Source: a virus
Lineage: Duplodnaviria > Heunggongvirae > Uroviricota > Caudoviricetes
Virus record (IMG/VR): IMGVR_UViG_2687453108_000014
Reading direction: 5' to 3' (one strand)
Length of the DNA stretch: 26,313 nucleotides
Part shown: piece after piece, positions 1 to 24,945 of the stretch
How the letters are laid out: every line of letters begins with the position of its first letter
Position numbering within the stretch: the stretch's first letter is position 1
Translations under genes and position numbers: made by a program
Notes under the pieces: generated by a model
Database searches by the model: none
The model's input: only the letters and a program-made list of their open reading frames with translations
Told to the model about the DNA's origin: nothing

Positions 1-118
1 ATGTCTGCACCTGCATTGCCTGATGTCAGAACAGTATTTTGATTAATTGCCAGGGTTACAATGGCACAAATGCGGCACAGGAGGAAACGTGGTGTATTTA
101 AATATGGGGTAACTACTT

Positions 119-146
119 GATTTAAATGGTGCGATAATAGGAACCA
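119..146. repeat. Degenerate copy of the thrW 3' end plus flank; possible distal att junction of the P4-like element
   Basis: ttgatttaaatggtgc-gataatagga matches 24859-24886 (flank plus start of thrW 3' end) with a 1-bp gap, then diverges. Confidence 0.35.
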
Positions 147-285
147 ATAATCGCCACCAACACAATGATTTTAATACATAAATTAAAATAGAAGATTTAA
201 ACTACACACACCCCTATACACATTGGTGAAGGCGTTCGCTTTCCGCGCATTCTCAAGGCAGAAAAAACTTTTTTTGGGGGATAAC

Positions 286-376
286 TGTTCATACTACTCA
301 TTGTGTTTTTTTTCATTAATATTCAAAAAGATATGAAATTAACGATTGATAAGAAGTGAACACTTTACTGTTCACC
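286..376. repeat. Iteron-like octamers (TGTTCAYY / GTGAACA), including an inverted pair; candidate P4-type crr/ori
   Basis: TGTTCATA at 286-293; GTGAACAC at 356-363 and TGTTCACC at 369-376 form an inverted pair with a 6-bp spacer. I recall TGTTCACC as the P4 alpha-binding iteron. Confidence 0.35.
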
Positions 377-675
377 TTGACTGATTAATAAGTGCATAAA
401 AACCTAATTTTTGAGCACGGAAGGTATTTGTTCCTTACCCCATTTTTTCTCTTTAGTCCAGTACAACAAAAAATGCGCCCAACAGAAAACTGTTTTGAAT
501 TTAAATGCAATCGCTTTGTAGTGATTGTAACGTAAGTTGATTTGATGGGTGCGATTTTGTTTAGCGATAATGGTATGTTGTAAAAATCATTTCGTTGCAA
601 TAAAATTGCATCGCTACATTTTATAGACAATATCAATTAAATTTTAATACTCATTATTAATTTTGAGGCTAACAA

Positions 676-1632
676 GTGACTAGTTATTCAAACTTTTCCA
701 ATCAAATAAAAGAAACCATCAATAATAAATTCGATCATGAAATTCATGATTGGGACATTATAAAAAACTCAATCACAACTTTAATAAATAAAAATATCCA
801 TGGTGCAGGTAGAAATATCGTTGATTTTATAGATTTAGGTAACTGGGATTTTATTTCAAACTTTTCCTTTGATGACTCTACAAGAAGACTTGAATTAGAG
901 TGGCACCCCAATGATAAATTCCATATATATATTGAGTCCGTTGTGTTTGTCGAGTTTAATGACACTATATATGCTTTCTTAAAGGGATACTATCACAATC
1001 AGTTATCTCTAAATAGAATATATAATACAAAATGCTCTTCATGTTCATTTGAAAACTCAGGTTCTTATATGGTAGACGTTTATAGAACGGTTAAAAGAGT
1101 AAATGAGACAATCCAGACCCCAAATATAAATTGCTATACTACATGTATTTTAACAAGGCCCGCAAATGGTCATGTTACATCTACAGGCTTCTCACGAAAC
1201 CTCATGGATGCGATAAATATTTCATTAGCAGAGCACAAAATAGCCTCTTTACATAATGAAGTCATGAGTATTGAGGAATATGATCGTGATTCTTTACAAG
1301 AGAAAGGAAATACTGCCAGGAGATATTTAGAATATATTCTCATGCTTGTTAATATTCGTATAATGCATTTAAACAACGTTCAATACCAAGAGCAAATGCT
1401 AGGTAGTTTAGTTTCTGTTATTGAGGCTCTGGACTATGAACCATTAATGAAAAATGATGTTGAAATTACAAAGGACATCCTTAATGCTTGCAGCCACCAC
1501 GGGGGGGTTAGAATTGAAAAGAAAGATGTAATTTTTTCTTTGGAAGTTATTGAAAACTTAATTAAAGCCATAAAGAAAACCGACATAAATAAATTACAAC
1601 TCGATGGGATGTTTAAATCAATTCAAAAATAA
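676..1632 (+). CDS. Hypothetical protein, 318 aa, AT-rich cargo gene of unknown function
   Basis: Long uninterrupted ORF with GTG start preceded by GAGG at suitable spacing; visibly AT-rich versus the neighbouring primase gene; no motif I can recognise. Confidence 0.6.
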   Translation: MTSYSNFSNQIKETINNKFDHEIHDWDIIKNSITTLINKNIHGAGRNIVDFIDLGNWDFISNFSFDDSTRRLELEWHPNDKFHIYIESVVFVEFNDTIYAFLKGYYHNQLSLNRIYNTKCSSCSFENSGSYMVDVYRTVKRVNETIQTPNINCYTTCILTRPANGHVTSTGFSRNLMDAINISLAEHKIASLHNEVMSIEEYDRDSLQEKGNTARRYLEYILMLVNIRIMHLNNVQYQEQMLGSLVSVIEALDYEPLMKNDVEITKDILNACSHHGGVRIEKKDVIFSLEVIENLIKAIKKTDINKLQLDGMFKSIQK

Positions 1633-1736
1633 ACATCATCTAACAATGAATTAGATGCATTTTCCGCTGACGCCTTAGCATATAACTTTTAAATTTTATC
1701 GATATATATTTTGAGATAATTTCCTGTAGCGGATTT

Positions 1737-1757
1737 AAGACCGGCACAGCCGGTCTT
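1737..1757. terminator. Hairpin between convergent genes, possible bidirectional terminator
   Basis: Perfect 9-bp stem aagaccggc / gccggtctt with 3-nt loop, between the stop of the 676-1632 ORF and the stop of the primase gene; no strong U-tract. Confidence 0.35.
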
Positions 1758-1764
1758 AGGTCAG

Positions 1765-4098
1765 TTATTTCGCTGCAAACTCATCGCATTTTGGCAACCA
1801 GTCAGCATTGCTTTCCTCTCTTAGGGCCAGATTAGTCTGCATTCCTTGATTGGTCCGTCGTTTCTCATACTGCAGCCCATATTCCTTGAGCATTAACGGT
1901 AGCCCCTTGCCAAACATGGTCAGACTGAGCGTATTTTTATAGCCGTTAGCCTCCATGTAGACCAGATAGGCATGGTAGAGGTAAGTTCGAGGCTGACGTG
2001 GAACAATATTAGCGTTCCCCATAAACATGCCCGTGGTGTCAGGTAGGACCTCAAGGTAGCCGCAAAAATCAAAAGCTGAATCAGCATCACGTTTGATGGT
2101 GAGCGCTTCATCGGAGTTCTGCTGTGACTGAAGCAATGTCCTGGCACTCATTGGGTCGCTGAAACGCTGCATAAGCTGGCGAACAATCACCGCTAGCTCA
2201 CTGGCAATTTTCTCTTTGAGCTGGGTATCGCGTTCCTCCGGGGCTATCTGGTCGGGGAAATGCAGGATCACCCTTCGGCGTGAAACTCCACCACTACGAT
2301 CAGTGAAGCGCATCGGATTATTGTTCACAGCCAGGATGACCGCCGGGATGTGGGTTGAATAGGCGTTCTGATATTTGGGATCAACGGATACCGCATCGCC
2401 GCCAGTGATGGCTTTTAGTCCGGCCCCGTCACCGCTCCACTTTTCCTGGTCGGGAAGTCGAATCAGTGAAAAACCTATTAACGCAGCTCGTTCTCTTGGC
2501 GACTCAAGCATTTCAATGGTTGCCGAGGTCGCGTTATCTTCACCCGCCAGCATGGTTGCTATTTCAGCAAGAATACTCTTTCCACTTCCGCCAGGGCCAG
2601 TGACCTCCAGAAACAGCTGCCAGTCATAACGGTTAGCCAGCACCATAAACAATGCAGCCAGAATAATGTCCCGTTTTTCAGGATTAAAACCTGCGGCACG
2701 ATCCAGCCAGCGCCAGAATGCCGGGGCATGGGTTTCCAGTGACTCACCGTCAACGGGCTGCGTGTAATCCACCTCGCACAGCGTACGTAACCAGTGCTTC
2801 TTATCGTGCGGGCTGAACAATCCTGTCCGGGTATCGAGCACACCGTTGCGAAATCCGATAAGTTGCCGCGCCGGATTCTGCTGTTGCGGAACGATCAGTT
2901 TGAGGGTTTCCACGAGAGACGCAATTTTCGCGGATGAAAAAGGTGCGTCGAGGCGCTGAAACAGCGCAGCGACATCACGGGCAAAATCGGCGTAATAGAT
3001 AACTTTCCAGGCCCCCGCCTCATAGCGTGAAAGGAGCTGCCCGTTCGGGTCTACTGCCAGTGAATTTTTATAGTGATCCACTACCCTCTGCGCTTTTTCG
3101 CTGACGCTCAGCGCGGTAAATTCAGCTTCGCTCATTGTGTCGAAGGGGCTGGCAACAGCTGGTTTTATTACTTCATGAATTGCATGCCGGGTGGCTTCTT
3201 CGCCGTTTTGCGTGAATGCATCGTTCCAGTCACCAAACACAGGCGGGAGCGCCATTGTGCAATTGCAGGCCCCGGTAACAGCTGCGCCCCTTGTTTGCCC
3301 CGCACCGTTGAGATCGCGGTCAGCAGCAATAATTATCTGGTGCGTTGGGTACTCACTGCAGGCAATGCTCGCCAGGGAAAGGAAATTGACGGACGAAAAG
3401 GCCACCATGACAGCATCGCCAGTCAGATAGTTGATAGTAAGTGCGGTGGCATATCCTTCCGCTATCCAGAGCCGTTTGGCTGCTTTGGCAGTACCTTCAA
3501 CCAGGTAAAAGGCATTCTTAACCTGACCGCCTTTAAGGAAGCATTTGCCCCCATTAGCGTTGATTAACTGCAGATTTACCAGCTCTCCATCTGCATACAA
3601 TGGAACGACAAGATCTCCCGCGCGAAATGCCACACCACCGACTTTATGCATAGCGGTTAATTCCCGGCAAGGCAGTGCAGGAAACCCTTTACTCGTCAGA
3701 TAGGCATTGCCAGTGGTCTGGCGGGACTTATCAAACAAACGGGCAGCCAGCACTGCTGCAGCTTTTCTCCCGTCCTCTTTTTCAGGAGAACCAGATTCAA
3801 GCATTCCCTGAGATACTGGCAGCAGGTTTCCGATAATGCCGTTTATTCTGTCTGCCGCTTCACTAATGCCTACATCCAGTACTTTACTTACAAGCGCCAG
3901 GCCATCACCTGCCCCGCACTGGTTACAGAACCACGTTCCCCGCCCTTCCTGGTCATCAAATCGAAAGCGGTCTTTCCCGGCACAGACCGGGCAGGGCTGG
4001 TGCCGATTTTTCAGTACATTTACGCCCAGCGCAGGTAAAATTCTTGACCAGTGACCCCGAGCTGCTTTCTCAGCCTGGCTAACTTTCATTCCTGACAT
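1765..4098 (-). CDS. P4 alpha-type primase-helicase
   Basis: N-terminal zinc motif CPVCAGKDRFRFDD...CNQCG, central TOPRIM-like region, C-terminal Walker A GPGGSGKS. Start placed at the internal Met (MSGMKVSQ...), which removes the overlap with the upstream ORF. Confidence 0.88.
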   Translation of the reverse strand: MSGMKVSQAEKAARGHWSRILPALGVNVLKNRHQPCPVCAGKDRFRFDDQEGRGTWFCNQCGAGDGLALVSKVLDVGISEAADRINGIIGNLLPVSQGMLESGSPEKEDGRKAAAVLAARLFDKSRQTTGNAYLTSKGFPALPCRELTAMHKVGGVAFRAGDLVVPLYADGELVNLQLINANGGKCFLKGGQVKNAFYLVEGTAKAAKRLWIAEGYATALTINYLTGDAVMVAFSSVNFLSLASIACSEYPTHQIIIAADRDLNGAGQTRGAAVTGACNCTMALPPVFGDWNDAFTQNGEEATRHAIHEVIKPAVASPFDTMSEAEFTALSVSEKAQRVVDHYKNSLAVDPNGQLLSRYEAGAWKVIYYADFARDVAALFQRLDAPFSSAKIASLVETLKLIVPQQQNPARQLIGFRNGVLDTRTGLFSPHDKKHWLRTLCEVDYTQPVDGESLETHAPAFWRWLDRAAGFNPEKRDIILAALFMVLANRYDWQLFLEVTGPGGSGKSILAEIATMLAGEDNATSATIEMLESPRERAALIGFSLIRLPDQEKWSGDGAGLKAITGGDAVSVDPKYQNAYSTHIPAVILAVNNNPMRFTDRSGGVSRRRVILHFPDQIAPEERDTQLKEKIASELAVIVRQLMQRFSDPMSARTLLQSQQNSDEALTIKRDADSAFDFCGYLEVLPDTTGMFMGNANIVPRQPRTYLYHAYLVYMEANGYKNTLSLTMFGKGLPLMLKEYGLQYEKRRTNQGMQTNLALREESNADWLPKCDEFAAK

Positions 4099-4111
4099 TG
4101 TGCGGCCCTCC

Positions 4112-4435
4112 TTAGTGCAGCGCTGGTTTGTTGAGGTGACGGGAACAAAGTTCATCCATGACCGTCATTCCGAGCAGTGAGAGAACCGGACAGGCTTTAA
4201 GCGGCCCCGACTCCATCAGATCCGAAAGCAACGCGCAGGCAATTTCCAGCCCTCTTTGCTGCCCATGCTGGCGCAGATAGAACCCTTCCAGCTCGCGGGC
4301 TATGGCATCTTCAAGTTCAGCGAGCGTCAGGCCGGAATAACGTTCCTGATGATTGCTTAGAGCCAGCCAGGCACAGGCAACGGCACGGCGATACAGAGCG
4401 GCACGAAGTGCCAGAAGAGATTCACAGCATATCAT
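4112..4435 (-). CDS. Hypothetical protein in the P4-like early region
   Basis: ORF co-directional with and just upstream of the primase gene; no recognisable motif. Confidence 0.45.
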
Positions 4436-4656
4436 CAGGCCACCTCCGCATTCATCAGGTCGTCATGGCAGCGTTGCACCACTCCATCCAGTTGCTCTGT
4501 CATCAGATAAATGAGGGAAACCAGTTGTTCGCATTGGGCACCTGCTGGCTTTTCATAACAGTCCTGCAGGGCTGCCATGCCAGTTACATACTCACCCACA
4601 TTGCGTAAATGTTTCAGCCTTACAACATCGTCGTAGGAAATCTCAAACTGGTTCAT
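4435..4656 (-). CDS. Hypothetical small protein in the P4-like early region
   Basis: 73-aa ORF abutting the neighbouring ORFs in an operon-like arrangement. Confidence 0.4.
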
Positions 4657-5210
4657 AGCGTCACCTCCCCGGCAGGCAGCCGTGCAGAAAGGGAGAGTAC
4701 ATAATCTCGGACTAGCAAACGGCGCGCGGAACGCTCATCGCAGGAGACAGTGCGAAGCATACAGATGCGGGGGTGAGTGTCAGCACGGCGGATTGCGGCA
4801 AACACAAAGACATATTGCGGGTGTGACGGGGTGAGGATTGTAGCCATGATGGCAGCCTCCAATAAGTAGCGGTTATTGCTACCACCGGAAACGCCAATTT
4901 CACTGGTGGCAGCCCGAACGGGGTTGGCGTAACCGGCCTTATTGGAAACCGGCCAGCCCGAAGGCTGCCCCGCCCGGACTACCATTATCTCGATAGAACC
5001 ATGGTGTAAGCATAAACACCACAGCCCTGAAAATGGTTGTGCCTGAGCTACGACGTAAAAAAAGACGCAAGGGGCGTCAATTGTCGCCAATAAGTTATAC
5101 GGAACGCCAATTCCGGCTGCCGATTTTGCGACAGCGGAAAAACTATACCTGGAAATGACGACAGTAAGCAAGCCAGAATAAAGGTATTTAATGTATGCAG
5201 GTATCATCAT
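4653..5210 (-). CDS. Hypothetical protein; start overlaps the alpA stop (ATGA); true start uncertain
   Basis: ATG at 5208-5210 overlaps the AlpA stop; composition is not strongly protein-like, so a shorter internal start is possible. Confidence 0.3.
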
Positions 5211-5467
5211 GCATCACATCCCCGCCCACGGGCGCTGATGCGGTCCGCCATCCATGCGCTGACCTCAGACTGTGCCCAGGCGACATTTTTACCGCCAAGC
5301 GGGATCTGCTTCGGAAACGCATCGCGGCTGATCAGGTCGTAAACGGTCGAACGGGACAACCCGCATAAGTGCATCACCTCAGGCAGGCGTAAAAATCGCT
5401 CATGATGGTTCGATACAGGAAATAATGGCGCAGCAGGAGCTGGCGCAGACACAGAAATATTACGCAT
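5207..5467 (-). CDS. alpA: AlpA/Vis-family prophage transcriptional regulator
   Basis: Segment [53 protein letters not shown] is characteristic of AlpA-family HTH proteins of P4-like elements. Confidence 0.8.
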
Positions 5468-6020
5468 TTATCTACCCTCTTTAATTTCCACAACAGTCCG
5501 GATGAATTTATCCGGGTTCAGGTAGTTCCTTATTATGTGTATATAAACCACCTGCGCACGCATTTTTTATTTAGCGTCACATATTGATTTTATGGAATTT
5601 AAAGCCCGATTAAACCATATAAAATGACATAATAAATACCATGCCTGCGGACTATAAATACAGGAGCATTAATAGGAACTACCATTCACCCAGGGTTTAC
5701 TATCCTATGGGTCATTGCACCTGATAGTGCTAACCCCACCGCCAATACAGCAAGGCAGTACAACTTCTACACGAGGCCTTGCATTGCAGGCCCCAATTTC
5801 CGGGCATATTTTTGAATCGCATCCAACTTATAAACATTGGGCCTGCATAAAAACCTTGATATTAAATAACATCACCTTAAATCGTAAAATATATCCGAAT
5901 GAATCCATAAAGAACCGGACAGATCTAGTTTTATAAAAATCAGTATGAAATGCAACACCATGGCCAGAGGCGAAAATGTTATTCCCCGGCAAAAACATGC
6001 AGTCTATTTATGTGCCTGTT

Positions 6021-6233
6021 GAATACTCCTGAATAAGGGTGAATAGTGGTGAGGAGCAAAAAACAAATAGCTACGAGGAATAAAAAAACCACCCATTATG
6101 AAAAAATACCATAAATAATTTTATTCCCATGTGAACAGTTATGAACAGTCGATGAATACTGCCATGCCAACCCTTCACCTTATAACCTTCTGTATTACCT
6201 ATTTTTTTTACCTAAGTGAATAGTAGTGAATAG
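6021..6233. repeat. Cluster of iteron-like octamers (GGTGAATA / GTGAACAG / AGTGAATA) in the divergent control region
   Basis: At least six copies of TGAAYA-type octamers at 6038-6045, 6130-6137, 6141-6147, 6151-6158, 6215-6222 and 6225-6232; they resemble the reverse complement of the P4 iteron. Confidence 0.4.
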
Positions 6234-6400
6234 TTAAGGTAAGTCTGAAACAGCCTTAGTTAAACGAGGCCTTTTCTGGCTAGCCAAAAGAGGTCCGGGG
6301 CGGTTCAGTCTTTGTCTTGTCGCTCGCACAATGGCGTTCAATGGCAGCTTTGTATGCATCACAGCACAATTGACACCACGACAAACCACTAGGTGCTGAC

Positions 6401-7153
6401 ATGACAATCCCAGAACAGAACAATAACCCGATCGTTGAAATTTCTATCCCTGTTTCGACGCAACAGGCGCTTGAGAAAGTGAATGCCACCAAATCTGCAT
6501 GGCTTGAAGCACGTCGTCAGCAAAAAGCGGCAGCGGATAATATTGCGACAATCCGCCAGCGCCGCGCTGAAATGGAAGCCACGACGAACGCCCTGAATGA
6601 GGAGTGGCGCACGCTATTTCGTGAAAGTCAGGGCGTAGTCTCAAAGGAAATGAAAAAACTGCGCACGGAAATTGCGCTGGGACGAGAAACGCTTGAGGAT
6701 TTTGATGAGCTGCTGGCGGCTCAGGAAAGCGAAAATGCACTTTTGCCGCAGGAGGCTGCGGAATTAGCCGGAAAGTATATCCACGCGCACGACACCCTTG
6801 TGGGTATTCGCGCAAAACAAATCTGGGAAGATTTTATGCAGTCGCATGGAAAAGCACTAATCCAGACACTAAGCCTGCTCAAATCAACAATGGGCAGGGA
6901 AGCCAGCGCAGTTGTCGGTGTGGTGCATTCAGTTAATGACCCGGACACACTGCTGAAAGATTTTATTCATAAACATATCACCAGACCGGCTCTGACTAAC
7001 GATGCGATGCCCGAACAGGACCCCGTGTTTAAACTGGCGGGAGTTGCCCCGGATTATGCGGCCCGTCTGGATTTCAGTAATAAACTCTCTCCAGCAGCTA
7101 TGCATAAAATGAAGGTTCGTCAGGAACGTGCTGAGAAGGAGAAAGCAGTATGA
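6401..7153 (+). CDS. sid: Sid-like capsid size-determination protein
   Basis: 250-aa coiled-coil-rich protein first in the sid-psu-delta block; shares the FMQ-HG-AL motif with the adjacent Psu-like gene. Assignment is from position and recalled similarity. Confidence 0.55.
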   Translation: MTIPEQNNNPIVEISIPVSTQQALEKVNATKSAWLEARRQQKAAADNIATIRQRRAEMEATTNALNEEWRTLFRESQGVVSKEMKKLRTEIALGRETLEDFDELLAAQESENALLPQEAAELAGKYIHAHDTLVGIRAKQIWEDFMQSHGKALIQTLSLLKSTMGREASAVVGVVHSVNDPDTLLKDFIHKHITRPALTNDAMPEQDPVFKLAGVAPDYAARLDFSNKLSPAAMHKMKVRQERAEKEKAV

Positions 7154-7701
7154 TGGCCCGAGTCACTCCAGACCAAGCGCTTATCAGTTTTAGAAATGCC
7201 CGTATTCTGTGGGCTGGACATAGTGAGAGCCGAAAAGCCGTTGAACAACAGATAGAATCACTCCTCACTGCCATGGAAAAACCAGCAGATTATGCTCGAC
7301 AGCTCGAATTACAGCGGGAACATCTGGATGTGCTGAAATGGCAAATTAACTGTGCTGCGCGCGAATGCATTTACTCGCAGCATCAACTGATGGAGGCCTG
7401 CACAGAAGACGCTCTCAGCAATTTTATGCAGGCGAATGGAGCAGCCCTGACATCTGCACTGGCTCCGTTCCTGAAGGGGCGCGGAGGGGTTGACGTTGCG
7501 TCCCGTATATTACGCAATGCTCTGGTTCGCCAGCTGGCAATAACACCGCCTGAAATTGCCGGGGATTATCGTATGATTCTGGATGAATCCGGTGTGATGC
7601 CTGACCCCATGATGGTTCGTGATTGCCAGAGCTCTTACACCCCTGCACAACAACTGCGCTTTCAGCAACGTCTGGATTACATTAACGGCATGCAGGAGTA
7701 A
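7150..7701 (+). CDS. psu: Psu-like polarity suppression protein
   Basis: 183 aa; KWQINCAARECIY and FMQANGAALTSALAPFL resemble what I recall of P4 Psu; start overlaps the sid stop (ATGA). Confidence 0.65.
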   Translation: MMARVTPDQALISFRNARILWAGHSESRKAVEQQIESLLTAMEKPADYARQLELQREHLDVLKWQINCAARECIYSQHQLMEACTEDALSNFMQANGAALTSALAPFLKGRGGVDVASRILRNALVRQLAITPPEIAGDYRMILDESGVMPDPMMVRDCQSSYTPAQQLRFQQRLDYINGMQE

Positions 7702-7706
7702 TATTA

Positions 7707-7979
7707 ATGGCACTTAAATGTCCCGAATGCGGTACGACGGCACACGCCAGAACCTCCGCCTATGAAGCACCATCGGTTAAACGCTCATGGTATCAGTGCC
7801 AGAATCTTGAATGTTCCTACACATTTACCGCACTGGAAAGTGTGGATACGATAATCATGAAGCCCCGGCGCAATGAACAGGAATCAGAGAAAGCACAAAT
7901 GCCGGAAAAACAACAGCAAACTCTCAATCGCTATGGCTCCGCGTCAAAGCTGTCAAGCCGTCAGCAAATTCCTGTCTGA
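7707..7979 (+). CDS. ogr: Ogr/Delta-family zinc-finger late transcription activator
   Basis: CPECG...AHARTS...YQCQNLECSYTF matches the Ogr/Delta zinc-finger pattern of P2/P4-type elements. Confidence 0.85.
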   Translation: MALKCPECGTTAHARTSAYEAPSVKRSWYQCQNLECSYTFTALESVDTIIMKPRRNEQESEKAQMPEKQQQTLNRYGSASKLSSRQQIPV

Positions 7980-7998
7980 TTAGCAAAAAAAGCCCACG

Positions 7999-8027
7999 TA
8001 ATCCCGGTCCAGTACTGGGATTTTTTA
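7999..8027 (+). terminator. Rho-independent terminator after ogr/delta
   Basis: Stem AATCCCGG / CTGGGATT around a 7-nt loop, followed by TTTTTT. Confidence 0.6.
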
Positions 8028-8388
8028 CGCCTTTTCCCTGGCTGGCCTGAGAGCGCATGAGTGCATGTCTATAGCGCATGAAAACGCATGATTCTCATGC
8101 ACCATTTTTGACGCGAAAGCCCTTGTGTGGTGGCTTCTGAGACGATTTGCGGAATGCATGAAAACCAGTCTGTTAAGCGAAGCGAGCAGGCGTGGGGGGC
8201 TGCGCGCGCTAAGGGGTTAGATTATAAAATATCAAACGCCGGTGAGATCCATTATTGTGGAACCACCCGAAGGAAGTGTAGAGGCGAAAGTACCCAAAAT
8301 AATTTTGCAAATTATTTAGAAATGAACTGAGCGCTCGAAACGAAATATAATTTCGAGCACCCCAATTAGCAGTTATATTTTTAATGTA

Positions 8389-10207
8389 TTAAACAGGATA
8401 AAAACCAGAGCTTCCATTCTTATTTAAGTTATGGATTTTATTTGCATCATTAATTTTTATTTGGAACGTCGGACCTTTATTCTCAAGAATTACAATCTGG
8501 AAATTATAGTCCCTTTTGATTAATGCGTGATAAAATGAATCACTGAGACTGACGCTATTAACATCCGATAGAGAACCCCCTCTATCTTTATCAAAGTGCG
8601 TCACTAATGGACTATCAAGCACAACAAATCCAATGAATGGATTCCCTTTTCTTGATAAAAATTCCGCAAAGCAAATGGTAAATATAGCATGCATTACTGC
8701 ACGGGTACCTTTACCAAACATTCCTCGGCGTTTCCCATTGATATTAAAGTCATATGTATCTTCGTCAAATCGCACTTTGTTATCTTTAGAATTTTCAAAA
8801 TTTATATCATTCAAAAAGTCTTGCATCGCTATTTCTATATCATACAAATCAGCTACTGTTAAGGAGTCAAAGTCCTCGGCGGAGTATTTAAGTTCGTCAA
8901 CATCATCTTCTTTATCTTGTAATGAAGATAGAATGCTATGTTTTGTGTGATCCATTAAAAGATTGTCTTTATATTCATAAAGTGATTCAAGAGATGAATG
9001 TATTGTTTTATATTTTTATCTTCTAACGTCTTAAAATCACTTTTTTCTGATTGATAAATTTCATTAACATCATTTTTTCTTAACATAATTAATTCATGTT
9101 CGCGAACATTAGATCCGATTGATTCAATTAATCCTTTCAGCTGGCTTTTGATTTTCAATTTTTCTGCATTACACGACAAAAAACAATCATCATATGATAT
9201 TTCATTTTCTTTTTTTGCGGTGTATTACAGAACTCACAATAAATATCTGCAAAATTATTTAAATAGAAATTCGCCTGTGATACAACATCTATTCTTTGTA
9301 GATCTATAAAGTATTGGTCTTTAAGAAGACTAAATCTTTCAATGAGTAATGATAAGTATTTTTCCCTGTCACTGATTGAATATAATTCATCACTTAACTC
9401 TTTTAATAATTGCTTCTTATCATCAAGTGCATCAACAATACCTTTCAATATATCTTTCGATGATTCAATATCTTGCTCTACTTTCTCAAGTTCTCTTGAA
9501 ACAATGACTTGATCATATTCAGGATAAATTAATTGCGCTTTCAATTCCTCATAAATATTTGCAATTTGATTTTTTTAAAAATATCTTGCTTTTTTATTTG
9601 GTTTTTCTGCTAAGGAGTTAGTATCATCTCTCTGAGTTAAAAGGAATTTAAATTCAGACTTTCTTTTTGTCTCCTCGCTAGGAATATCAGAAAGAATTAA
9701 CGACTTCTCAGTTAACACTCTTAATTCATCAATACAAAAAAATTCAAAAACATTATTAAGATTAAATTTATGAAGAGTATTACTTAAGTTTGTTCTTACT
9801 TTAGCCTCTTTGAAATTCAACCTACCATAAAAGTATGATGAAAAACTCTTTTTAGACGAAGCACTTTTGGAAAAAACCATCAACAGATTAGCTTCACTAA
9901 CATTTTCAATACTCGAATCATATAATCTGTAATGGGCGCTATCCTGAAGAGACCTCTCAATTGTCATTACCCTACCTTGAAAATTAAATTCCAGATAGGC
10001 TAAATCATAACCTTGAGCATGATCGATATCTTTATTTTTTAGTTTTTCACTCCCTAATAAATATCGAATCAAATAATATATGTATGTTTTTCCAGAGTCA
10101 GAACCACCATATAAAATAGTCAATTTAGAACCAAATTCAATTATAGCATCTAATTTATTGAATCCGGTTACCTTTATTTTTCTGAACGTAAAAAAATTGT
10201 CATTCAT
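8389..10207 (-). pseudogene. SMC/ABC-like ATPase (component 3), split into four ORF fragments by one in-frame TAA and at least one frameshift
   Basis: N-terminal fragment has an SMC-type Walker A (FRKIKVTGFNKLDAIIEFGSKLTILYGGSDSGKT); the middle is coiled-coil-like; the last fragment has a Walker-B-like FVVLDSP. Fragments 9578-10207 and 9155-9574 are in the same frame separated by TAA at 9575-9577. Fragments 2 and 3 use TTG starts. Confidence 0.5.
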
Positions 10208-10658
10208 AATTAAATTCCATATCATATTTGCCAATTTTATTTTTTATAATTGATTGCAACTGCTCATCAGGAATATCACTATATAACTTAACCACCAAAT
10301 TTATATTATGCTCCATCTGCGCAACATATTCATTATGTAGAGAATTTGTAAATGCATATGTTTTTTCAGAAGCTTTATATACAAAACCACGATGTGTATA
10401 AATTTTTGAGGCTAGTTCATAGCCTTGCAACAAAGCCAATGATTCTAAAACAATCTCTCGTTTTAGGGCTAACTGAGCATCTCTACGGGGTATTGGAGGA
10501 TGAAGACTAATCTCTTCAGGTAAAAAATCCTTAAGATTTACTAAAATAAAATCAAAACAAATAAGCCGTTCAAGGCTTAATGAAGAAGGATAAATAGCGA
10601 CGAGCACTTTCGCCATTCGACATGCCACTTCTAAACTTGAATTATAAATTCTAACCAT
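10200..10658 (-). CDS. Small protein (component 2), about 152 aa from the internal ATG
   Basis: ATG at 10656-10658 overlaps the upstream stop (TAATG) and its own stop overlaps the ATPase start (ATGAATGA); no recognisable motif. Confidence 0.5.
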   Translation of the reverse strand: MVRIYNSSLEVACRMAKVLVAIYPSSLSLERLICFDFILVNLKDFLPEEISLHPPIPRRDAQLALKREIVLESLALLQGYELASKIYTHRGFVYKASEKTYAFTNSLHNEYVAQMEHNINLVVKLYSDIPDEQLQSIIKNKIGKYDMEFNYE

Positions 10659-11275
10659 TATCTCACCGTCCAAATTACTTCACCATCATTAACCAAATGA
10701 TGGCATATTCCTTTTTTATCATTTGCTTCACATATTTTTGATAGTACTGAATGTGCAATTGGTGTCAGAACAGCCTGCTTCAAGACTGCATTACACCTAA
10801 TAAATGCATAATTATGGTCTTCATAAAAGACGGGTTCAATTGAAGATGAAATGTAACATTTCAATGCTTTGAATACATCATCTTTAAATACTTCGCGGAC
10901 AAAAACCTCAAGCGAAGATGCAAAATAAAAATCATTTCTACTATTATTAAAGTGTCGTCTGTATGGATCATCAAGCTCTAAGAAAGAACTATAAGTTTTA
11001 TTTCCATGCTCTGAATAGGCTTGAAGCAGTGCATTAACATATACAGACTCTTTTTTTGAATTGTATGTTGGAATTTCATTTGGAGGGATTCTCACGACAT
11101 ACAGCTCGTTAAAGTACTTAAAATAAAGGTGTGTATTTGCAATATCATTTAAAATCAATGATAAGGGTAGAGAGTAAAAAATACTAAAATCAAAATCCTC
11201 AATATATTTTTTTATTTCATCATCTAATGGAATATCAATCTTTTTAGTTATTTTTTTGAAATTGCTGAATCCCAT
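10658..11275 (-). CDS. Hypothetical protein, probably the C-terminal part of the upstream nuclease-like gene
   Basis: Overlaps the upstream ORF by 28 nt in another frame exactly at an A7 run (11251-11257); its own RBS is weak; a 1-nt change in the run would fuse the two into about 340 aa. Confidence 0.45.
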   Translation of the reverse strand: MGFSNFKKITKKIDIPLDDEIKKYIEDFDFSIFYSLPLSLILNDIANTHLYFKYFNELYVVRIPPNEIPTYNSKKESVYVNALLQAYSEHGNKTYSSFLELDDPYRRHFNNSRNDFYFASSLEVFVREVFKDDVFKALKCYISSSIEPVFYEDHNYAFIRCNAVLKQAVLTPIAHSVLSKICEANDKKGICHHLVNDGEVIWTVR

Positions 11276-11664
11276 GAATCAAGGACTGCTTTTTTAAGCT
11301 CGTTTTTATTTTTCAATAAATTAGAAAATGTAGTAGATAAATCATAGGGTGCCACAAAAAAGTACTTCTGAGGGATGGGATAATCACCATTCAGAGTAAA
11401 ATAGATAAGTTTTCCAAACTCAACTACAACATCAGAGAACCCTAAACTTTTTTTGTACAGTTTGCATTGATAATTATCCCAAGAATAACCTTCTACGTTA
11501 GGATCCGATTTATATCCAACAACGTCTCTACCTTTATCTCCAGCTCCTCCCAAACGTTCGCTCCACGGGTAATCATCTGATTTACAGACAATAAGCCAAT
11601 CATGGACAAATACCTCCCATTGTTCATCATCCCATGTCAATATTTCCGAAAGTGGTTGAGACAC
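11248..11664 (-). CDS. PD-(D/E)xK (Mrr/Cap4-like) nuclease-domain protein (component 1, N-terminal part)
   Basis: ERLGGAGDKGRDVVGY ... NYQCKLYKK resembles the G-x-GD-x-G-x-D ... QxK catalytic core of Mrr-type nucleases; GTG start 7 nt after AAGGAG, directly downstream of the integrase stop. Confidence 0.5.
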   Translation of the reverse strand: MSQPLSEILTWDDEQWEVFVHDWLIVCKSDDYPWSERLGGAGDKGRDVVGYKSDPNVEGYSWDNYQCKLYKKSLGFSDVVVEFGKLIYFTLNGDYPIPQKYFFVAPYDLSTTFSNLLKNKNELKKAVLDSWDSAISKK

Positions 11665-11667
11665 AAA

Positions 11668-12849
11668 TTAACTCCTTTTTAGTCTTTCAAATATCAAATT
11701 ACTGTACCAGTCCATCATAGACTTCCTTCCACTAAAATATTGAGCATGGTTATAAGTCCCCCTAATAGAATTTTTATCTACATGAGCCAACTGGATTTCA
11801 ATCCAAGCACTCTCAAAACCTTGCTCATGCAGGATTGTAGAAAGGGTATGACGAAAACCATGTCCAGTGACTTTTCCTCCATACCCAATACGCTTAATGG
11901 CTTGATTTATACTCGCTTCGCTCATTGGCCTATTCGGATCGTTCCGCCCTGGAAAAACATAACGATAGTTCCCTGTCATGATCTTGAGTTCATTGAGTAA
12001 ATCTACCGCTTGAGATGATAAGGGCACAAGATGTGGCCTACGCATTTTCATCCTTTCAGCAGGAATTTCCCAAATAGCGTTATCCAGATCAAATTCTTGC
12101 CATAATGCCGCGCGTAATTCGATGGTTCTCACACCCGTAATCATCAGTAATTTCGTGGCTATCTGGACAAGCTTACTCCCGGAGTAACCCTCTAAGGCAC
12201 GTAGAAAATCAGGTATCTCATCAGCTTTTAGGAATGGGAAATGATTGGATTGGTGTACTTCGAGAGCGCTGGAGAGATCAGCCGCAGGATTGTACTCCGC
12301 CCTACCCGTTGCAATTGCGGGGCGGTTCACTTCGGAGCAACGCTGCCGCACTTTGCGCATTTTCTCCAACGCACCACGTTTCTCAATTTTACGCAGAACG
12401 TTCAGCAGCTCTAGCGGTTTAATCTCTCCCACAGGCCTTGTTCCGACATAAGGAAAAATGTCGTTCTTAAACGCTTCCATGATGTCTGATGCATATCCCG
12501 CCGACCATTTAGCAGATTTAAGTTGATGCCACTCTCTGGCTATCTTTTCGAAGGCGTTCTCTGACTCTGTTTGCATAGCTAGCTTTTGCTCTTTTCGAAC
12601 CTCACTAGGGTTCTTTCCTTCTGCCACAAGTTTTCGAGCTTCATCACGACGGGAACGAGCATCGGCAAGGGTGATCGTTGGGTAAACACCAAGCGAGATC
12701 ATTTTGGGTTTGCCGGCATAGCGATAGCGGAACCGCCAACTCTTGCTTCCATTAGGTTCTATAAGTAATGACAACCCTAGCCCATCTCCAAATGTATAGG
12801 CTTTAGCTTCAGGCTTAGCGCGGCGAATCTGCATATCGTTTAAAGGCAT
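11668..12849 (-). CDS. int: P4-type tyrosine integrase
   Basis: P4-type N-terminal arm-binding region (MPLNDMQIRRAKPEAKAYTFGDGLGLSL...) and catalytic HxxR (GHGFRHTL) and Tyr (RGTYNHAQY) motifs; lies next to the partial thrW repeat. Confidence 0.9.
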   Translation of the reverse strand: MPLNDMQIRRAKPEAKAYTFGDGLGLSLLIEPNGSKSWRFRYRYAGKPKMISLGVYPTITLADARSRRDEARKLVAEGKNPSEVRKEQKLAMQTESENAFEKIAREWHQLKSAKWSAGYASDIMEAFKNDIFPYVGTRPVGEIKPLELLNVLRKIEKRGALEKMRKVRQRCSEVNRPAIATGRAEYNPAADLSSALEVHQSNHFPFLKADEIPDFLRALEGYSGSKLVQIATKLLMITGVRTIELRAALWQEFDLDNAIWEIPAERMKMRRPHLVPLSSQAVDLLNELKIMTGNYRYVFPGRNDPNRPMSEASINQAIKRIGYGGKVTGHGFRHTLSTILHEQGFESAWIEIQLAHVDKNSIRGTYNHAQYFSGRKSMMDWYSNLIFERLKRS

Positions 12850-12904
12850 GTGTATAGGAATCCAGACCGAACAGGAACATATACACAATCCTATACACAT
12901 TCAG

Positions 12905-13010
12905 TACCGGATTCTACTGGATGGTTACGGACTACTATGGACTTAAAAGAATAAAAAATGTTATAAATCAGAGATTTTATGGACTAATACGGACGTTTGA
13001 GGAAGTTGAG
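12905..13010. promoter_or_regulatory. Candidate integrase arm-type binding repeats
   Basis: Repeated TACGGAC / TATGGACTA motifs between the int start and the att core. Confidence 0.3.
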
Positions 13011-13012
13011 AT

Positions 13013-13058
13013 GGTGCCGATAATAGGAGTCGAACCTACGACCTTCGCATTACGAATT
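13013..13058 (-). repeat. 46-bp partial thrW 3' end, the att junction between the two elements
   Basis: Exact 46-bp identity to 24870-24915 (3' portion of thrW); diverges at 13059. Confidence 0.85.
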
Positions 13059-13338: not shown

Positions 13339-13504
13339 CTGGACTGTTGCGATCGTGAAGCCATAGACTGGGCCGCAAGCACGGGAGGTTACGATAAAGC
13401 GACAGTGCAGGATGTCATGTTAGGAGCGATAGAAAAACGCTTTGGCGATAAAGTACCGGAACAGTCCATCCAGTGGCTGACAGATAACGGTTCAGCGTAT
13501 AGAG
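13339..13504 (+). pseudogene. IS2-family (IS3 superfamily) transposase remnant, upstream part, interrupted by the IS629-like element
   Basis: Translates to ...[51 protein letters not shown], resembling an InsD-type C-terminal region; the frame continues after the IS. Confidence 0.55.
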
Positions 13505-13558
13505 TGAACCGCCCCGGAAATCCTGGAGACTAAACTCCCTGAGAAAGAGGTAAACAGG

Positions 13559-13885
13559 ATGACTAAAAATACTCGTTTTTCCCCCGAAGTCCGTCAGCGG
13601 GCGATTCGTATGGTTCTGGAAAGTCAGGATGAATATGACTCACAGTGGGCGGCAATTTGTTCCATTGCCCCAAAGATTGGCTGTACGCCGGAGACTCTGC
13701 GTGTCTGGGTTCGCCAGCATGAGCGGGATACCGGGGGCGGTGATGGTGGGCTCACCAGCGCTGAACGTCAGCGTCTGAAAGAGCTGGAACGTGAAAATCG
13801 TGAACTGCGCCGCAGTAACGATATCCTTCGCCAGGCTTCCGCTTATTTTGCGAAGGCGGAGTTCGACCGCCTCTGGAAAAAATGA
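13559..13885 (+). CDS. IS629-like OrfA (HTH)
   Basis: [23 protein letters not shown]... with leucine-zipper-like C-terminus, typical of IS3-family OrfA. Confidence 0.85.
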
Positions 13886-14772
13886 TGCCACTGCTGGATA
13901 AGCTGCGTGAGCAGTACGGGGTCGGACCGGTATGCAGCGAACTGCATATTGCCCCGTCAACGTATTACCATTGTCAGCAACAGCGACATCATCCGGATAA
14001 ACGCAGTGCCCGTGCGCAGCACGACGACTGGCTGAAGAGAGAGATACAGCGCGTATACGATGAAAATCATCAGGTGTACGGTGTGCGTAAAGTCTGGCGT
14101 CAGTTGTTACGGGAAGGAATCAGGGTGGCCAGATGTACAGTGGCACGTCTCATGGCGGTTATGGGACTTGCCGGTGTTCTCCGGGGTAAAAAGGTCCGTA
14201 CGACCATCAGCCGGAAAGCCGTTGCCGCAGGCGACCGCGTAAACCGTCAGTTCGTGGCAGAACGACCTGACCAGCTGTGGGTGGCTGATTTTACTTACGT
14301 CAGCACATGGCAGGGCTTCGTCTATGTGGCGTTTATCATTGATGTGTTTGCCGGATACATCGTGGGGTGGCGGGTCTCATCGTCTATGGAAACGACATTC
14401 GTGCTGGATGCGCTGGAGCAGGCGTTGTGGGCCCGTCGTCCGTCTGGCACCATCCATCACAGCGATAAAGGCTCTCAGTATGTGTCACTGGCCTATACGG
14501 AGCGACTAAAAGAAGCCGGATTACTGGCATCAACAGGGAGTACAGGCGACTCGTATGACAACGCGATGGCTGAGAGCATCAATGGTCTTTACAAAGCGGA
14601 GGTAATACACCGTAAGAGCTGGAAAAACCGTGCAGAAGTGGAACTGGCCACACTAACGTGGGTGGACTGGTATAACAATCGACGATTGCTGGGAAGGCTG
14701 GGCCATACTCCTCCGGCAGAAGCAGAAAAAGCTTATTATGCTTCCATCGGAAACGATGATCTGGCAGCCTGA
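13882..14772 (+). CDS. IS629-like OrfB (DDE transposase)
   Basis: DDE-type catalytic region (...WVADFTYV..., ...HHSDKGSQY..., ...DNAMAES...); overlaps orfA as expected for programmed -1 frameshifting. Confidence 0.85.
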
Positions 14773-14817
14773 GTTCACAGATAAAACACTCTCCAGGAAA
14801 CCCGGGGCGGTTCAGAG

Positions 14818-15124: not shown

Positions 15125-15868
15125 TCAGATTCCCTGGTGAGTAAGAATTTTACTTTCTGAACTCCTCTGAGAGTATTGACTTGGAGAAACACCAAAATAA
15201 CGTCTAAATACATAAGTAAAGTATGAGACACTGGCATAACCACAGACCTTAGCTACTTTACTAATAGGATAACAACGAGTGCTGAGTAAATATTCAGCCA
15301 TTTGCATCCTCTCATCAAGTATGATCTTACTGAATGATACCCCCTCTTCTTTCAATTTCCTCTTTAGTAAACTTTCGCTGAGATATAATCTTGATGATAT
15401 ATCCTTAAGACGCCATGGTGCAGATAAATCCGTATGAATAATCGTTTTAACTTTAGCCCCTGTGCTTTTCAAACATCCAAACAGAAATACTCCAAATTGT
15501 TTTTCAGAAGAAAATGCAGAGAGACATGTAAAAGCAATAGACTCATCAAAAATTTCTATGTATTCAGCACAGTGATTAGCCCAACTAATTAATCCTTTAA
15601 TTAAACTGAAGTCAGCAAAGTTTATTTTTAAATAAGATGGATATTCCCTACAATCAGAAATATCCCTTAAGTTATTAGCTTTCAAATAGCGACTAATAAA
15701 CTCAGCGCCAAAATCCGCCACTATCACTCTTTCAGGATATGTCAGGAAAAAATCTCTAGAGCTAGAGTCGACAAGTACAGATGAACCTCTCTCCAGAAAC
15801 ACACTCTCTTTTCCGAAATAAACATCAAAGGACTCCAAAATCAATATAACTGAACATGTAGTTGCCAT
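15125..15868 (-). CDS. AraC/XylS-family transcriptional regulator, AppY-like
   Basis: C-terminal double HTH (WRLKDISSRLYLSESLLKRKLKEEGVSFSKIILDERMQMAEYLL...VCGYASVSYFTYVFRRYFGVSPSQY); overall layout resembles prophage-borne AppY-type regulators; gene is AT-rich. Confidence 0.8.
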   Translation of the reverse strand: MATTCSVILILESFDVYFGKESVFLERGSSVLVDSSSRDFFLTYPERVIVADFGAEFISRYLKANNLRDISDCREYPSYLKINFADFSLIKGLISWANHCAEYIEIFDESIAFTCLSAFSSEKQFGVFLFGCLKSTGAKVKTIIHTDLSAPWRLKDISSRLYLSESLLKRKLKEEGVSFSKIILDERMQMAEYLLSTRCYPISKVAKVCGYASVSYFTYVFRRYFGVSPSQYSQRSSESKILTHQGI

Positions 15869-23876: not shown

Positions 23877-23990
23877 ATGGATGCACAAACACGCCGCCGC
23901 GAACGTCGCGCAGAGAAACAGGCTCAATGGAAAGCAGATCGGATTCTGGCTTCAACATTTCGCAGGAATGCAACTAAGAGACATTACTGA
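23877..23990 (+). pseudogene. N: Truncated antiterminator N (codons 1-20) running out of frame into integrase sequence
   Basis: [20 protein letters not shown] matches lambda N; from about 23938 the sequence is integrase-derived and the N frame ends after 17 unrelated codons. Confidence 0.85.
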
Positions 23991-24869: not shown

Positions 24870-24945
24870 TGGTGCCGATAATAGGAGTCGAACCTACGAC
24901 CTTCGCATTACGAATGCGCTGCTCTACCAACTGAGCTATATCGGC
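24870..24945 (-). tRNA. thrW: tRNA-Thr (anticodon CGU), thrW
   Basis: Reverse complement is GCCGATATAGCTCAGTTGGTAGAGCAGCGCATTCGTAATGCGAAGGTCGTAGGTTCGACTCCTATTATCGGCACCA, a full cloverleaf with CCA. Confidence 0.95.

What the first reader, a model, noticed from the sequence alone, without database searches (positions are those of the whole stretch)
10658..11664. Nuclease-like gene split at an A7 homopolymer; GTG start coupled to the integrase stop
The PD-(D/E)xK-like ORF has no ATG at all. It starts with GTG 7 nt after a strong AAGGAG that lies inside the last codons of int, in the same frame as int and one codon after its stop. Its 3' end overlaps the next ORF by 28 nt exactly at an A7 run (11251-11257), so a 1-nt change would make one protein of about 340 aa. 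This looks like either a phase-variable or pseudogenised effector gene, or a sequencing indel.
Basis: seen in the sequence. Interest (0 to 1): 0.45.

Follow-up and report, generated by a model that had tools for sequence, protein, structure and literature searches.

The report
Frameshifted, decaying Lamassu defence nuclease gene
The two overlapping ORFs are the two halves of one anti-phage nuclease gene (LmuA of a Lamassu system) carried by a P4-like satellite prophage of E. coli O157:H7; the gene lost one A from an A8 run and, like its partner gene LmuB, is an ordinary decaying pseudogene rather than a sequencing error or a genetic switch.

Summary
The ORF at 11248-11664 starts with GTG, has no internal Met, and sits 7 nt after an AAGGAG inside the last codons of int. 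It overlaps the ORF at 10658-11275 by 28 nt at an A7 run (11251-11257). One extra A gives a single 334-aa protein.

The two ORFs match consecutive positions (10-140 and 141-333) of one PADLOC LmuA profile. Of the 120 homologues listed, 117 are single proteins of 324-381 aa, and they align across the junction without a gap.

The operon is LmuA-LmuC-LmuB, a short Lamassu (ABC-3C) system with an Mrr-like effector. It lies in the int-proximal defence hotspot of a P4-like satellite integrated at thrW.

- **Sequencing error excluded:** none of 309 complete E. coli records (O157:H7 and O55:H7) has A8 at this run.
- **Phase variation and programmed frameshifting unsupported:** there is no run-length polymorphism, no stimulatory RNA structure and no frameshift in homologues.
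- **LmuB is also broken:** in this window it carries a nonsense codon and two more 1-nt deletions. Sister lineages carry further lesions of their own.

Verdict: real but ordinary pseudogenisation of a known defence system. Interest is low. It is a minor counter-example to the reported rarity of defence pseudogenes in P4 hotspots.

The parts
11668..12849 (-). P4-type tyrosine integrase (393 aa from the PGAP start; the mechanical ORF extends to 12900). Its last codons contain the SD of the next gene.
   Evidence: Pfam Arm-DNA-bind_3, Phage_int_M and Phage_integrase. 89% aa identity to the integrase of a Serratia P4-like element. RefSeq annotation.
11672..11677 (-). AAGGAG Shine-Dalgarno, 7 nt upstream of the GTG start of lmuA, inside int codons AGG AGT
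   Evidence: Read directly from the sequence. The same AAAGGAG + 7 nt + TTG precedes the Xenorhabdus homologue.
11251..11664 (-). lmuA 5' half: GTG start and Mrr-like PD-(D/E)xK effector domain, residues 1-138 (ORF ends TAA 11250-11248)
   Evidence: PADLOC LmuA PDLC03852 positions 10-140 of 336, E=9e-41. Invariant G40 G42 D43 G45 R46 D47 ... Q66 C67 K68. Full-length homologues P0043 and P0103 reach Pfam Mrr_cat above the gathering score.
11251..11257 (-). A7 run, site of the 1-nt deletion (ancestral A8: TCA AAA AAA ATA ACT = S K K I T)
   Evidence: None of 309 E. coli records has A8.
10658..11250 (-). lmuA 3' half (-1 frame): linker plus ABC-3C C-terminal domain CTD6. The mechanical ORF starts at a fortuitous ATG at 11275.
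   Evidence: PADLOC LmuA PDLC03852 positions 141-333, E=4e-44. Pfam CTD6 E=8e-30. tblastn of Xenorhabdus and Serratia LmuA switches frame at 11251-11254.
10200..10658 (-). lmuC (ABC-3C middle component 2), apparently intact; its ATG overlaps the lmuA stop (TAATG)
   Evidence: Pfam MC2 E=6e-30. PADLOC LmuC E=2.5e-36. 59% identity over 152 aa to the Xenorhabdus protein.
8389..10207 (-). lmuB (SMC/Rad50-like ABC ATPase) pseudogene, broken into four ORFs
   Evidence: PADLOC LmuB PDLC03863 pieces 3-199, 230-329 and 428-608 of 610. tblastn frames -3, -2, -1. Three single-base repairs give a 606-aa ORF that aligns without gaps across the three repaired lesions with the 604- and 609-aa homologues.
9575..9577 (-). 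In-frame TAA nonsense codon in lmuB (ancestral TTA Leu)
   Evidence: O55:H7 RM12579 has T at 9576. Homologues have Leu at this column.
9210..9216 (-). A7 run in lmuB: second 1-nt deletion (A8 to A7), specific to a sub-lineage of O157:H7
   Evidence: A8 in O55:H7 and PV15-279. 241 of 309 records match the A8 version exactly; the other 68 do not.
9006..9017 (-). Interval holding the third lmuB lesion, a 1-nt loss in or near an A4/A5 run, shared by O55:H7 and O157:H7
   Evidence: Frame switch -2 to -1. Adding one A restores register with homologues. No E. coli record matches that repaired version.
13011..13057 (.). 47-nt exact copy of the 3' part of thrW (24870-24945): att site flanking the P4-like satellite next to int
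   Evidence: blastn within the window. A further 27-nt copy lies at 117-142.
117..142 (.). Distal att repeat (27 nt aligned, 26 identical, 96%) marking the other end of the roughly 12.9-kb P4-like satellite
   Evidence: P4-like genes lie between the repeats: primase, icd-like, sid-like, psu, ogr/delta.

Best explanation
The two ORFs are one gene, lmuA. It encodes the effector of a short (type II, LmuC-containing) Lamassu / ABC-3C anti-phage system: an N-terminal Mrr-like PD-(D/E)xK nuclease domain, a linker and a C-terminal CTD6 docking domain. The system (lmuA-lmuC-lmuB) is AT-rich cargo (31% GC) in the int-proximal defence hotspot of a P4-like satellite prophage integrated at thrW in the E. 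coli O55:H7/O157:H7 lineage. An ancestral A8 run (S-K-K-I-T) lost one A. This separates the nuclease domain (138 aa) from the domain that, in characterised Lamassu systems, docks LmuA on the LmuB/LmuC sensor and mediates activating oligomerisation. The lesion became fixed, and the operon then decayed without constraint. In this window lmuB has a TTA-to-TAA nonsense codon and two further single-base deletions, and other strains have different additional lesions. Shown here: the homology, the single-gene state of homologues, the fixation of A7, and the extra lesions and their lineage distribution. Inferred: loss of function, the ancestral A8, and the mechanistic consequence of uncoupling the two domains (by analogy with the Vibrio Cap4-Lamassu structures, bioRxiv 10.1101/2025.04.02.646746). 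The GTG start with AAGGAG inside the int 3' end is the genuine start of lmuA and reflects tight packing against int.
For:: ORF-N matches LmuA profile positions 10-140 and ORF-C matches positions 141-333 of the same 336-position model. LmuC matches, and LmuB matches in three pieces.
Pfam CTD6 and MC2.
The best intact one has 67% identity. No intact near-identical protein exists among 5.8 billion clusters; only the 197-aa C-terminal half appears (692 member sequences).
the alignment is gapless across the junction.
the frame switch falls exactly at the A run.
0 of 309 records have A8.
progressive, lineage-specific lesions in lmuB and lmuA.
6 nonsynonymous, 1 nonsense and 2 synonymous differences between O55 and O157 in the cargo, consistent with relaxed constraint.
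P4-like gene set and att repeats.
a Serratia P4-like element at thrW carries the same int-lmuA-lmuC-lmuB-delta arrangement with intact 334-, 159- and 609-aa genes.
Against: RefSeq/PGAP annotates both halves as ordinary CDS, not as pseudogenes, in most genomes. The A7 lies in phase as A_AAA_AAA followed directly by TAA, a possible -1 slippery site, so trace amounts of full-length LmuA cannot be excluded. No expression or phenotype data were available. No close intact relative (above 67% identity) exists, so A8 is inferred rather than observed. lmuC is still intact.
Confidence: 0.9

Rival explanations
1. Sequencing or assembly indel at a homopolymer: the real genome has A8 and an intact gene.
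For: Homopolymer runs are typical sites of sequencing errors. Single-genome homopolymer differences that could be such errors were seen elsewhere (NE 1092-2).
Against: All 309 complete E. coli records with the locus lack A8. They come from many laboratories and platforms and include O55:H7. The protein database holds 692 member sequences of the C-terminal half and no intact near-identical protein.
Confidence: 0.01
2. Phase-variable (contingency) effector gene: slipped-strand mispairing at the A run switches LmuA on and off in the population.
For: The break is a homopolymer tract in the coding sequence. The analogous A run in lmuB is polymorphic (A8 in 241 records, not A8 in 68). Several other lesions are also homopolymer indels.
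Against: No length polymorphism at the lmuA run in 309 records. Switching it on would be useless because lmuB carries a nonsense codon and a shared frameshift in every genome examined in detail. The lmuB polymorphism accompanies other irreversible lesions (IS1203 insertion, nonsense codon), which fits one-way decay. Whether it follows clonal lineages was not mapped.
Confidence: 0.03
3. Programmed -1 ribosomal frameshift or transcriptional slippage at A_AAA_AAA_TAA makes full-length LmuA at a set low level, for example to limit a toxic nuclease.
For: The heptamer A_AAA_AAA is in the correct phase, the required shift is -1, and a stop codon follows immediately. The lmuB A7 likewise reads A_AAA_AAG in phase. 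Established knowledge: such heptamers are used in dnaX and IS3-family elements.
Against: Any 1-nt deletion in an A8 run automatically gives an A7 needing a -1 shift; the phase match has about a 1 in 3 chance. The 81 nt downstream fold no better than shuffled sequence (z = +1.3). No homologue is frameshifted: the DNA of the two inspected has AGT AAA ATA or CAC AAA ATC in frame, and 117 of 120 listed are single proteins. lmuB also has a nonsense codon and a frameshift away from any slippery heptamer. Strains carry further lesions in the N-terminal ORF.
Confidence: 0.03
4. Two functional genes: a free-standing 138-aa Mrr-like nuclease domain translationally coupled to int, plus a separate CTD6 protein, forming a naturally split effector.
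For: Both ORFs are annotated as CDS. The break falls between the effector domain and CTD6. The N-terminal ORF has a strong SD.
Against: No good SD precedes the ATG at 11275. Only 3 of 120 listed relatives are shorter than full length, and one of those is this locus itself. Strains show an IS1203 insertion, an A5-to-A4 frameshift and a 1-nt deletion inside the N-terminal ORF, so it is not under constraint. The sensor LmuB is broken.
Confidence: 0.03

Closest known systems
Short (type II) Lamassu / ABC-three-component system with an Mrr-type LmuA effector (PADLOC LmuA PDLC03852, LmuC PDLC03871, LmuB PDLC03863; Pfam CTD6 PF20282, MC2 PF20288)
   Same: Gene order lmuA-lmuC-lmuB. Strong profile matches for all three proteins. 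LmuA architecture is an N-terminal PD-(D/E)xK (Mrr-like, D...QxK) domain, a linker and CTD6. Intact counterparts with 57-67% identity occur in Xenorhabdus, Serratia, Yersinia and Aeromonas.
   Different: Here lmuA is frameshifted and lmuB carries three lesions, so the system is very probably non-functional. The N-terminal domain itself does not reach Pfam Mrr_cat; only more distant full-length homologues do.
Vibrio cholerae Lamassu Vc-Cap4 (DdmABC), the structurally characterised LmuA1B2C1 complex (bioRxiv 10.1101/2025.04.02.646746)
   Same: Same three-component logic. The LmuA C-terminal domain docks on the LmuB coiled coils and LmuC; on DNA-end sensing LmuA is released and oligomerises to activate the nuclease.
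   Different: The effector domain differs (Cap4 there, Mrr-like here). No sequence match to any solved chain. The mechanism is transferred by analogy only.
Defence hotspot of P4-like satellites (between int and psu/delta); NAR 2026, PMC13586616
   Same: Int is directly followed by defence cargo and then ogr/delta, psu and sid. The Serratia P4-like element at thrW has the same cassette, intact.
   Different: That study reports that defence pseudogenes are rare in P4 (under 1% of pseudogenes) and that systems are swapped before inactivation. This locus is a multiply inactivated defence system retained across the O55:H7/O157:H7 lineage.
Programmed -1 frameshift sites (dnaX, IS3 family: A_AAA_AAG)
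   Same: A-rich heptamer in the correct phase, and a -1 shift is required.
   Different: No stimulatory structure, no conservation of the frameshift in homologues, and accompanying irreversible lesions.

Membership tests
Lamassu (short / type II, Mrr effector) | LmuB: SMC/Rad50-like ABC ATPase of about 600 aa | tested here: met
   Met at the level of homology: PADLOC LmuB PDLC03863 matches in three pieces, E=8e-50, 2e-16 and 5e-37. A repaired 606-aa ORF aligns with the 604- and 609-aa homologues. The gene itself is broken.
Lamassu (short / type II, Mrr effector) | LmuC / ABC-3C middle component between lmuA and lmuB | tested here: met
   Pfam MC2 E=6e-30; PADLOC LmuC E=2.5e-36; the ORF is intact.
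Lamassu (short / type II, Mrr effector) | LmuA: one polypeptide with an N-terminal effector domain and a C-terminal docking domain | tested here: not met
   Both halves are present and collinear on one LmuA profile but lie in different frames. Homologues are single proteins.
Lamassu (short / type II, Mrr effector) | Effector domain is Mrr-like PD-(D/E)xK | tested here: inconclusive
   No direct Pfam hit for the O157 N-terminal domain. Full-length homologues P0043 and P0103 hit Mrr_cat at 25 and 26.7 bits against a cut-off of 21. The invariant D43, D47, Q66, C67 and K68 fit the D...QxK motif.
Lamassu (short / type II, Mrr effector) | Protects against phage | not testable with these tools
Four inactivating lesions predict no activity.
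P4-like satellite prophage | P4-type int, alpha primase-helicase, psu, sid-like and delta/ogr genes, flanked by att repeats at a tRNA | tested here: met
   RefSeq annotation of the identical EC4115 region. Pfam domains of int. 47-nt and 27-nt copies of the thrW 3' end at 13011-13057 and 117-142.
Programmed -1 ribosomal frameshift | Slippery heptamer X_XXY_YYZ in the zero-frame phase | tested here: met
   TC[A AAA AAA] TAA.
Programmed -1 ribosomal frameshift | Downstream stimulatory structure or upstream SD-like stimulator | tested here: not met
   The 81 nt downstream have an MFE of -5.9 kcal/mol, z = +1.3 against shuffles. No SD-like motif was seen upstream on direct reading.
Programmed -1 ribosomal frameshift | Frameshift conserved among homologues | tested here: not met
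   Homologues are single ORFs. The Xenorhabdus and Serratia DNA has no long A run at the site.
Phase-variable contingency locus | Repeat-length polymorphism among closely related isolates that toggles the reading frame | tested here: not met
   0 of 309 records have A8 at the lmuA run. The partner gene is irreversibly damaged.

The most novel reading that the evidence does not exclude
The A_AAA_AAA_TAA site might allow low-level -1 ribosomal or transcriptional slippage that still yields some full-length LmuA. Alternatively, the int-coupled 138-aa Mrr-like domain might have been co-opted as a free-standing satellite nuclease. In either case the 'pseudogene' would retain a role, for example in satellite-helper conflict, independent of the broken LmuB sensor.
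Probability: 0.03. Interest if true: 0.5.

Novelty: already known. Interest (0 to 1): 0.15.

Why it matters
The main value is for annotation. In about 300 complete O157:H7 and O55:H7 genomes, RefSeq lists the two halves as a 'hypothetical protein' and an 'ABC-three component system protein', and lists the lmuB pieces as separate proteins. They should instead be annotated as lmuA and lmuB pseudogenes of a Lamassu system.

There is also a small evolutionary point. A recent survey (PMC13586616) concluded that defence systems in P4-like satellites are swapped before they decay and that defence pseudogenes are rare. This locus is a clear exception: a defence cassette fixed in an inactivated state in a major pathogen lineage. 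It carries a datable series of lesions:
- **Shared by O55 and O157:** the lmuA A8-to-A7 deletion and the lmuB lesion at about 9006-9017.
- **O157 (this window and PV15-279) but not O55:H7:** the lmuB nonsense codon.
- **Sub-lineage only:** the lmuB A8-to-A7 deletion and IS1203 insertions.

These lesions could serve as lineage markers. They also show that homopolymer indels dominate decay in AT-rich cargo.

Tried and rejected
- **Pfam on the N-terminal ORF alone:** no hit. PADLOC and transitive homology were needed to identify it.
- **Sequence search of solved structures with the repaired LmuA:** only a chance-level hit (E=0.13), so no direct structural anchor. Structure prediction was not run because the question was settled by sequence.
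- **Plasmid collection search:** only one misfiled E. coli contig and an integrase-only Klebsiella hit.
- **88-nt query to count genomes with TTA instead of TAA at 9576:** no match, probably because of low-complexity masking. The state was instead read directly in O55:H7 and PV15-279.
- **Apparent 210-aa LmuB in a second Xenorhabdus assembly:** I checked whether it marked a conserved stop at the same place as in O157. It is a contig-end or rearrangement artefact, since the sequence diverges after TTCTTAA.
- **Rejected readings:** programmed frameshifting, phase variation, sequencing error and a split functional effector (see rival explanations).

Full report
**Observation.** The genes in the finding lie on the minus strand. 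The integrase ORF ends AGG AGT TAA at 11676-11668. One TTT codon follows, and then GTG at 11664-11662 opens a 138-aa ORF (11248-11664) in the same frame as int. AAGGAG is at 11677-11672, 7 nt before the GTG. The ORF has no Met other than its initiator. A 205-aa ORF (ATG 11275 to 10658) overlaps it by 28 nt, and the overlap contains an A7 run at 11251-11257. The downstream frame is -1 relative to the upstream one, so an eighth A joins them into a 334-aa ORF. Runs of seven A or T are common in this segment (8 in 3.3 kb at 31% GC, against 45% for the whole window), so the run alone is not remarkable.

**What it is.** PADLOC profiles identify the locus.
- The N-terminal ORF matches positions 10-140 of the 336-position LmuA model PDLC03852 (E=9e-41). 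The C-terminal ORF matches positions 141-333 of the same model (E=4e-44).
- The next ORF (10200-10658) is LmuC (E=2.5e-36).
- The following four ORFs match positions 3-199, 230-329 and 428-608 of a 610-position LmuB model.
- Pfam agrees: CTD6 of ABC-three-component systems in the C-terminal ORF, MC2 in LmuC, and AAA_23/SMC_N in the first LmuB piece.

This is a short, LmuC-containing Lamassu (ABC-3C) anti-phage system. The N-terminal domain of LmuA has the invariant pattern G-x-G-D-K-G-R-D ... W-x-x-x-Q-C-K. Two full-length homologues reach Pfam Mrr_cat above its gathering score.

Of the 120 proteins listed, 117 are single proteins of 324-381 aa covering at least 91% of the query. The best have 67% identity (Xenorhabdus bovienii, 335 aa) and 56-61% identity (Aeromonas, Serratia, Yersinia). 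The only near-identical entry is the 197-aa C-terminal half itself, with 692 member sequences. A 16-sequence alignment runs across the junction without a gap: O157 WDSAISKK|ITKKIDIPL aligns with WDKSISKKITTS (P0004), WDESISKKISKT (P0002) and WDKSIGHKITSK (Serratia, P0007). tblastn with intact Xenorhabdus and Serratia proteins switches frame at 11251-11254. The N-termini of homologues start at the same column (MSQPL, MVQPL, MGKPL). The Xenorhabdus gene has AAAGGAG + 7 nt + TTG. This supports GTG 11664 as the true start.

**Not a sequencing error, not a switch.** The window is E. coli O157:H7; it is 100% identical over 4.65 kb to EC4115 and others. An 88-nt probe carrying A8 matched 309 records in 308 genomes, all in the 95-99% identity band (the listed ones at 98.9%, i.e. 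one gap) and none at 100%. The A7 state is fixed across O157:H7 and its O55:H7 relatives, in assemblies from many laboratories and platforms.

**The partner gene is also broken.**
- lmuB has an in-frame TAA at 9575-9577. O55:H7 RM12579 has TTA (Leu) there, and homologues also have Leu.
- It has a 1-nt deletion in an A run at 9210-9216. This run is A8 in O55:H7 and in 241 of 309 records; the other 68, including this window, do not match the A8 version.
- It has a further 1-nt loss at about 9006-9017, shared by all.
- Three single-base repairs restore a 606-aa ORF that aligns without gaps across the three repaired lesions with the 604- and 609-aa homologues.

**Other strains have their own lesions.**
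- O55:H7 RM12579 has A6 reduced to A5 at 9041-9046.
- NE 1092-2 lacks a base at 11621.
- PV15-279 has an IS1203 insertion in the lmuA 5' end, A5 reduced to A4 at 11313 and T7 reduced to T6 at 10196.

Between O55 and O157 the cargo differs by 6 nonsynonymous, 1 nonsense and 2 synonymous changes. The numbers are small but look like relaxed constraint. This is the signature of one-way decay after an initial inactivation, not of a reversible switch.

**Programmed frameshifting considered.** The run reads TC-A_AAA_AAA-TAA, a phase-correct -1 heptamer followed by a stop. The lmuB A7 reads A_AAA_AAG. However, any single-A loss from an in-frame A8 produces an A7 that needs a -1 shift, and the phase match has about a 1 in 3 chance. 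The 81 nt downstream fold no better than shuffled sequence (z = +1.3). The Xenorhabdus and Serratia homologues whose DNA was read have no long A run at this site, and the other listed homologues are single proteins. The nonsense codon and the third lmuB lesion are not at slippery sites. I give this reading about 3%.

**Context.** RefSeq annotation of the identical EC4115 region shows, next to the cassette, ogr/delta, psu, a sid-like gene, an Icd-like gene and a primase-helicase. Exact or near-exact copies of the thrW 3' end lie at 13011-13057 and 117-142. The element is therefore a roughly 12.9-kb P4-like satellite. It is integrated in tandem with another prophage remnant (13.1-24.8 kb) at thrW (24870-24945), next to proA. 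A Serratia marcescens P4-like element at thrW carries the same int-lmuA-lmuC-lmuB-delta arrangement with intact genes of 334, 159 and 609 aa. The cassette therefore sits in the known int-proximal defence hotspot of P4-like satellites.

**Mechanistic reading.** In the structurally characterised Vibrio Lamassu, the LmuA C-terminal domain docks the monomeric effector on the LmuB coiled coils and LmuC. DNA-end sensing then releases LmuA, which tetramerises to activate its nuclease (bioRxiv 10.1101/2025.04.02.646746). The break at residue 138/139 lies between the effector domain and CTD6 (residues 206-332 of the repaired protein). It would uncouple the nuclease from both docking and activation. This step is an inference by analogy, because that system has a Cap4 effector and this one an Mrr-like effector.

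**Comparison with the literature and verdict.** A 2026 survey of P4 and P2 hotspots reports that defence-gene pseudogenes are rare (under 1% of P4 pseudogenes) and argues that systems are swapped before inactivation (PMC13586616). This locus is a counter-example, retained in a whole pathogen lineage. Otherwise the finding is ordinary: a known defence family, a homopolymer frameshift and progressive pseudogenisation. Confidence in the pseudogene explanation is 0.9 and interest is 0.15.

Noticed in passing
window 8389-10207 (-): lmuB, the partner ATPase gene, is itself broken into four ORFs: a TAA nonsense codon (9575-9577), an A8-to-A7 deletion (9210-9216) and a 1-nt loss near 9006-9017. RefSeq lists the pieces as separate 'AAA family ATPase' or 'hypothetical' proteins rather than as a pseudogene.
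   Followed up: yes
window 9210-9216: The lmuB A run is polymorphic within O157:H7: 241 of 309 complete records have A8 and 68, including this window, do not. It could serve as a sub-lineage marker. I did not map it onto clades.
   Followed up: partly
window 117-142, 13011-13057 and 24870-24945: Three copies of the thrW 3' end (27, 47 and 76 nt). They delimit a roughly 12.9-kb P4-like satellite (about 117-13057) integrated in tandem with a second prophage remnant (13.1-24.8 kb; own integrase at 23881-24855, cI-like repressor, replication protein O, pin invertase and tail-fibre genes) at thrW next to proA.
   Followed up: partly
window ~13400-14800: An IS3-family element (orfA 13559-13885, orfB 13882-14772; IS629/IS1203-like) sits between the P4-like int side and the AraC-family gene (15125-15868). 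It lies inside or beside an older partial IS3-type transposase fragment (13405-13533). EC4115 lacks this roughly 1.3-kb insertion (by coordinate offset). Other strains carry IS1203 inside int or lmuA instead.
   Followed up: partly
L002 4607-4680 (Xenorhabdus bovienii), immediately upstream of lmuA: There is a weak, collinear relic of the last 25 or so codons of a P4-type integrase (HARYFCG*KNFLN / FFEWYSDFMFIGYKR against HAQYFSGRKSMMDWYSNLIFERLKR; each E is about 1), followed by the same AAAGGAG + 7 nt + start arrangement. The Xenorhabdus cassette sits in a different prophage context. This suggests the Lamassu cassette travels with the 3' end of int, i.e. the hotspot recombination boundary lies inside int.
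   Followed up: partly
window 12320-12327 (int): Five substitutions cluster within 8 nt between O157:H7 and O55:H7 RM12579 in the integrase (GAACCGCCCC against GTTTCGCTAC). This looks like a micro-conversion patch or multi-nucleotide mutation rather than independent point changes.
   Followed up: no
window 8953-8957: A TAATG stop/start overlap lies between the third and fourth lmuB fragments. The ATG is an internal Met of the ancestral ORF (KDNLLMDHTKH). The apparent translational coupling is probably fortuitous, but it could allow separate translation of the C-terminal ATPase half.
   Followed up: no
protein P0016: A 211-aa relative (60% identity, covering 63% of the query, no CTD6 hit) may be another truncated LmuA in a different organism. 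It was not examined.
   Followed up: no
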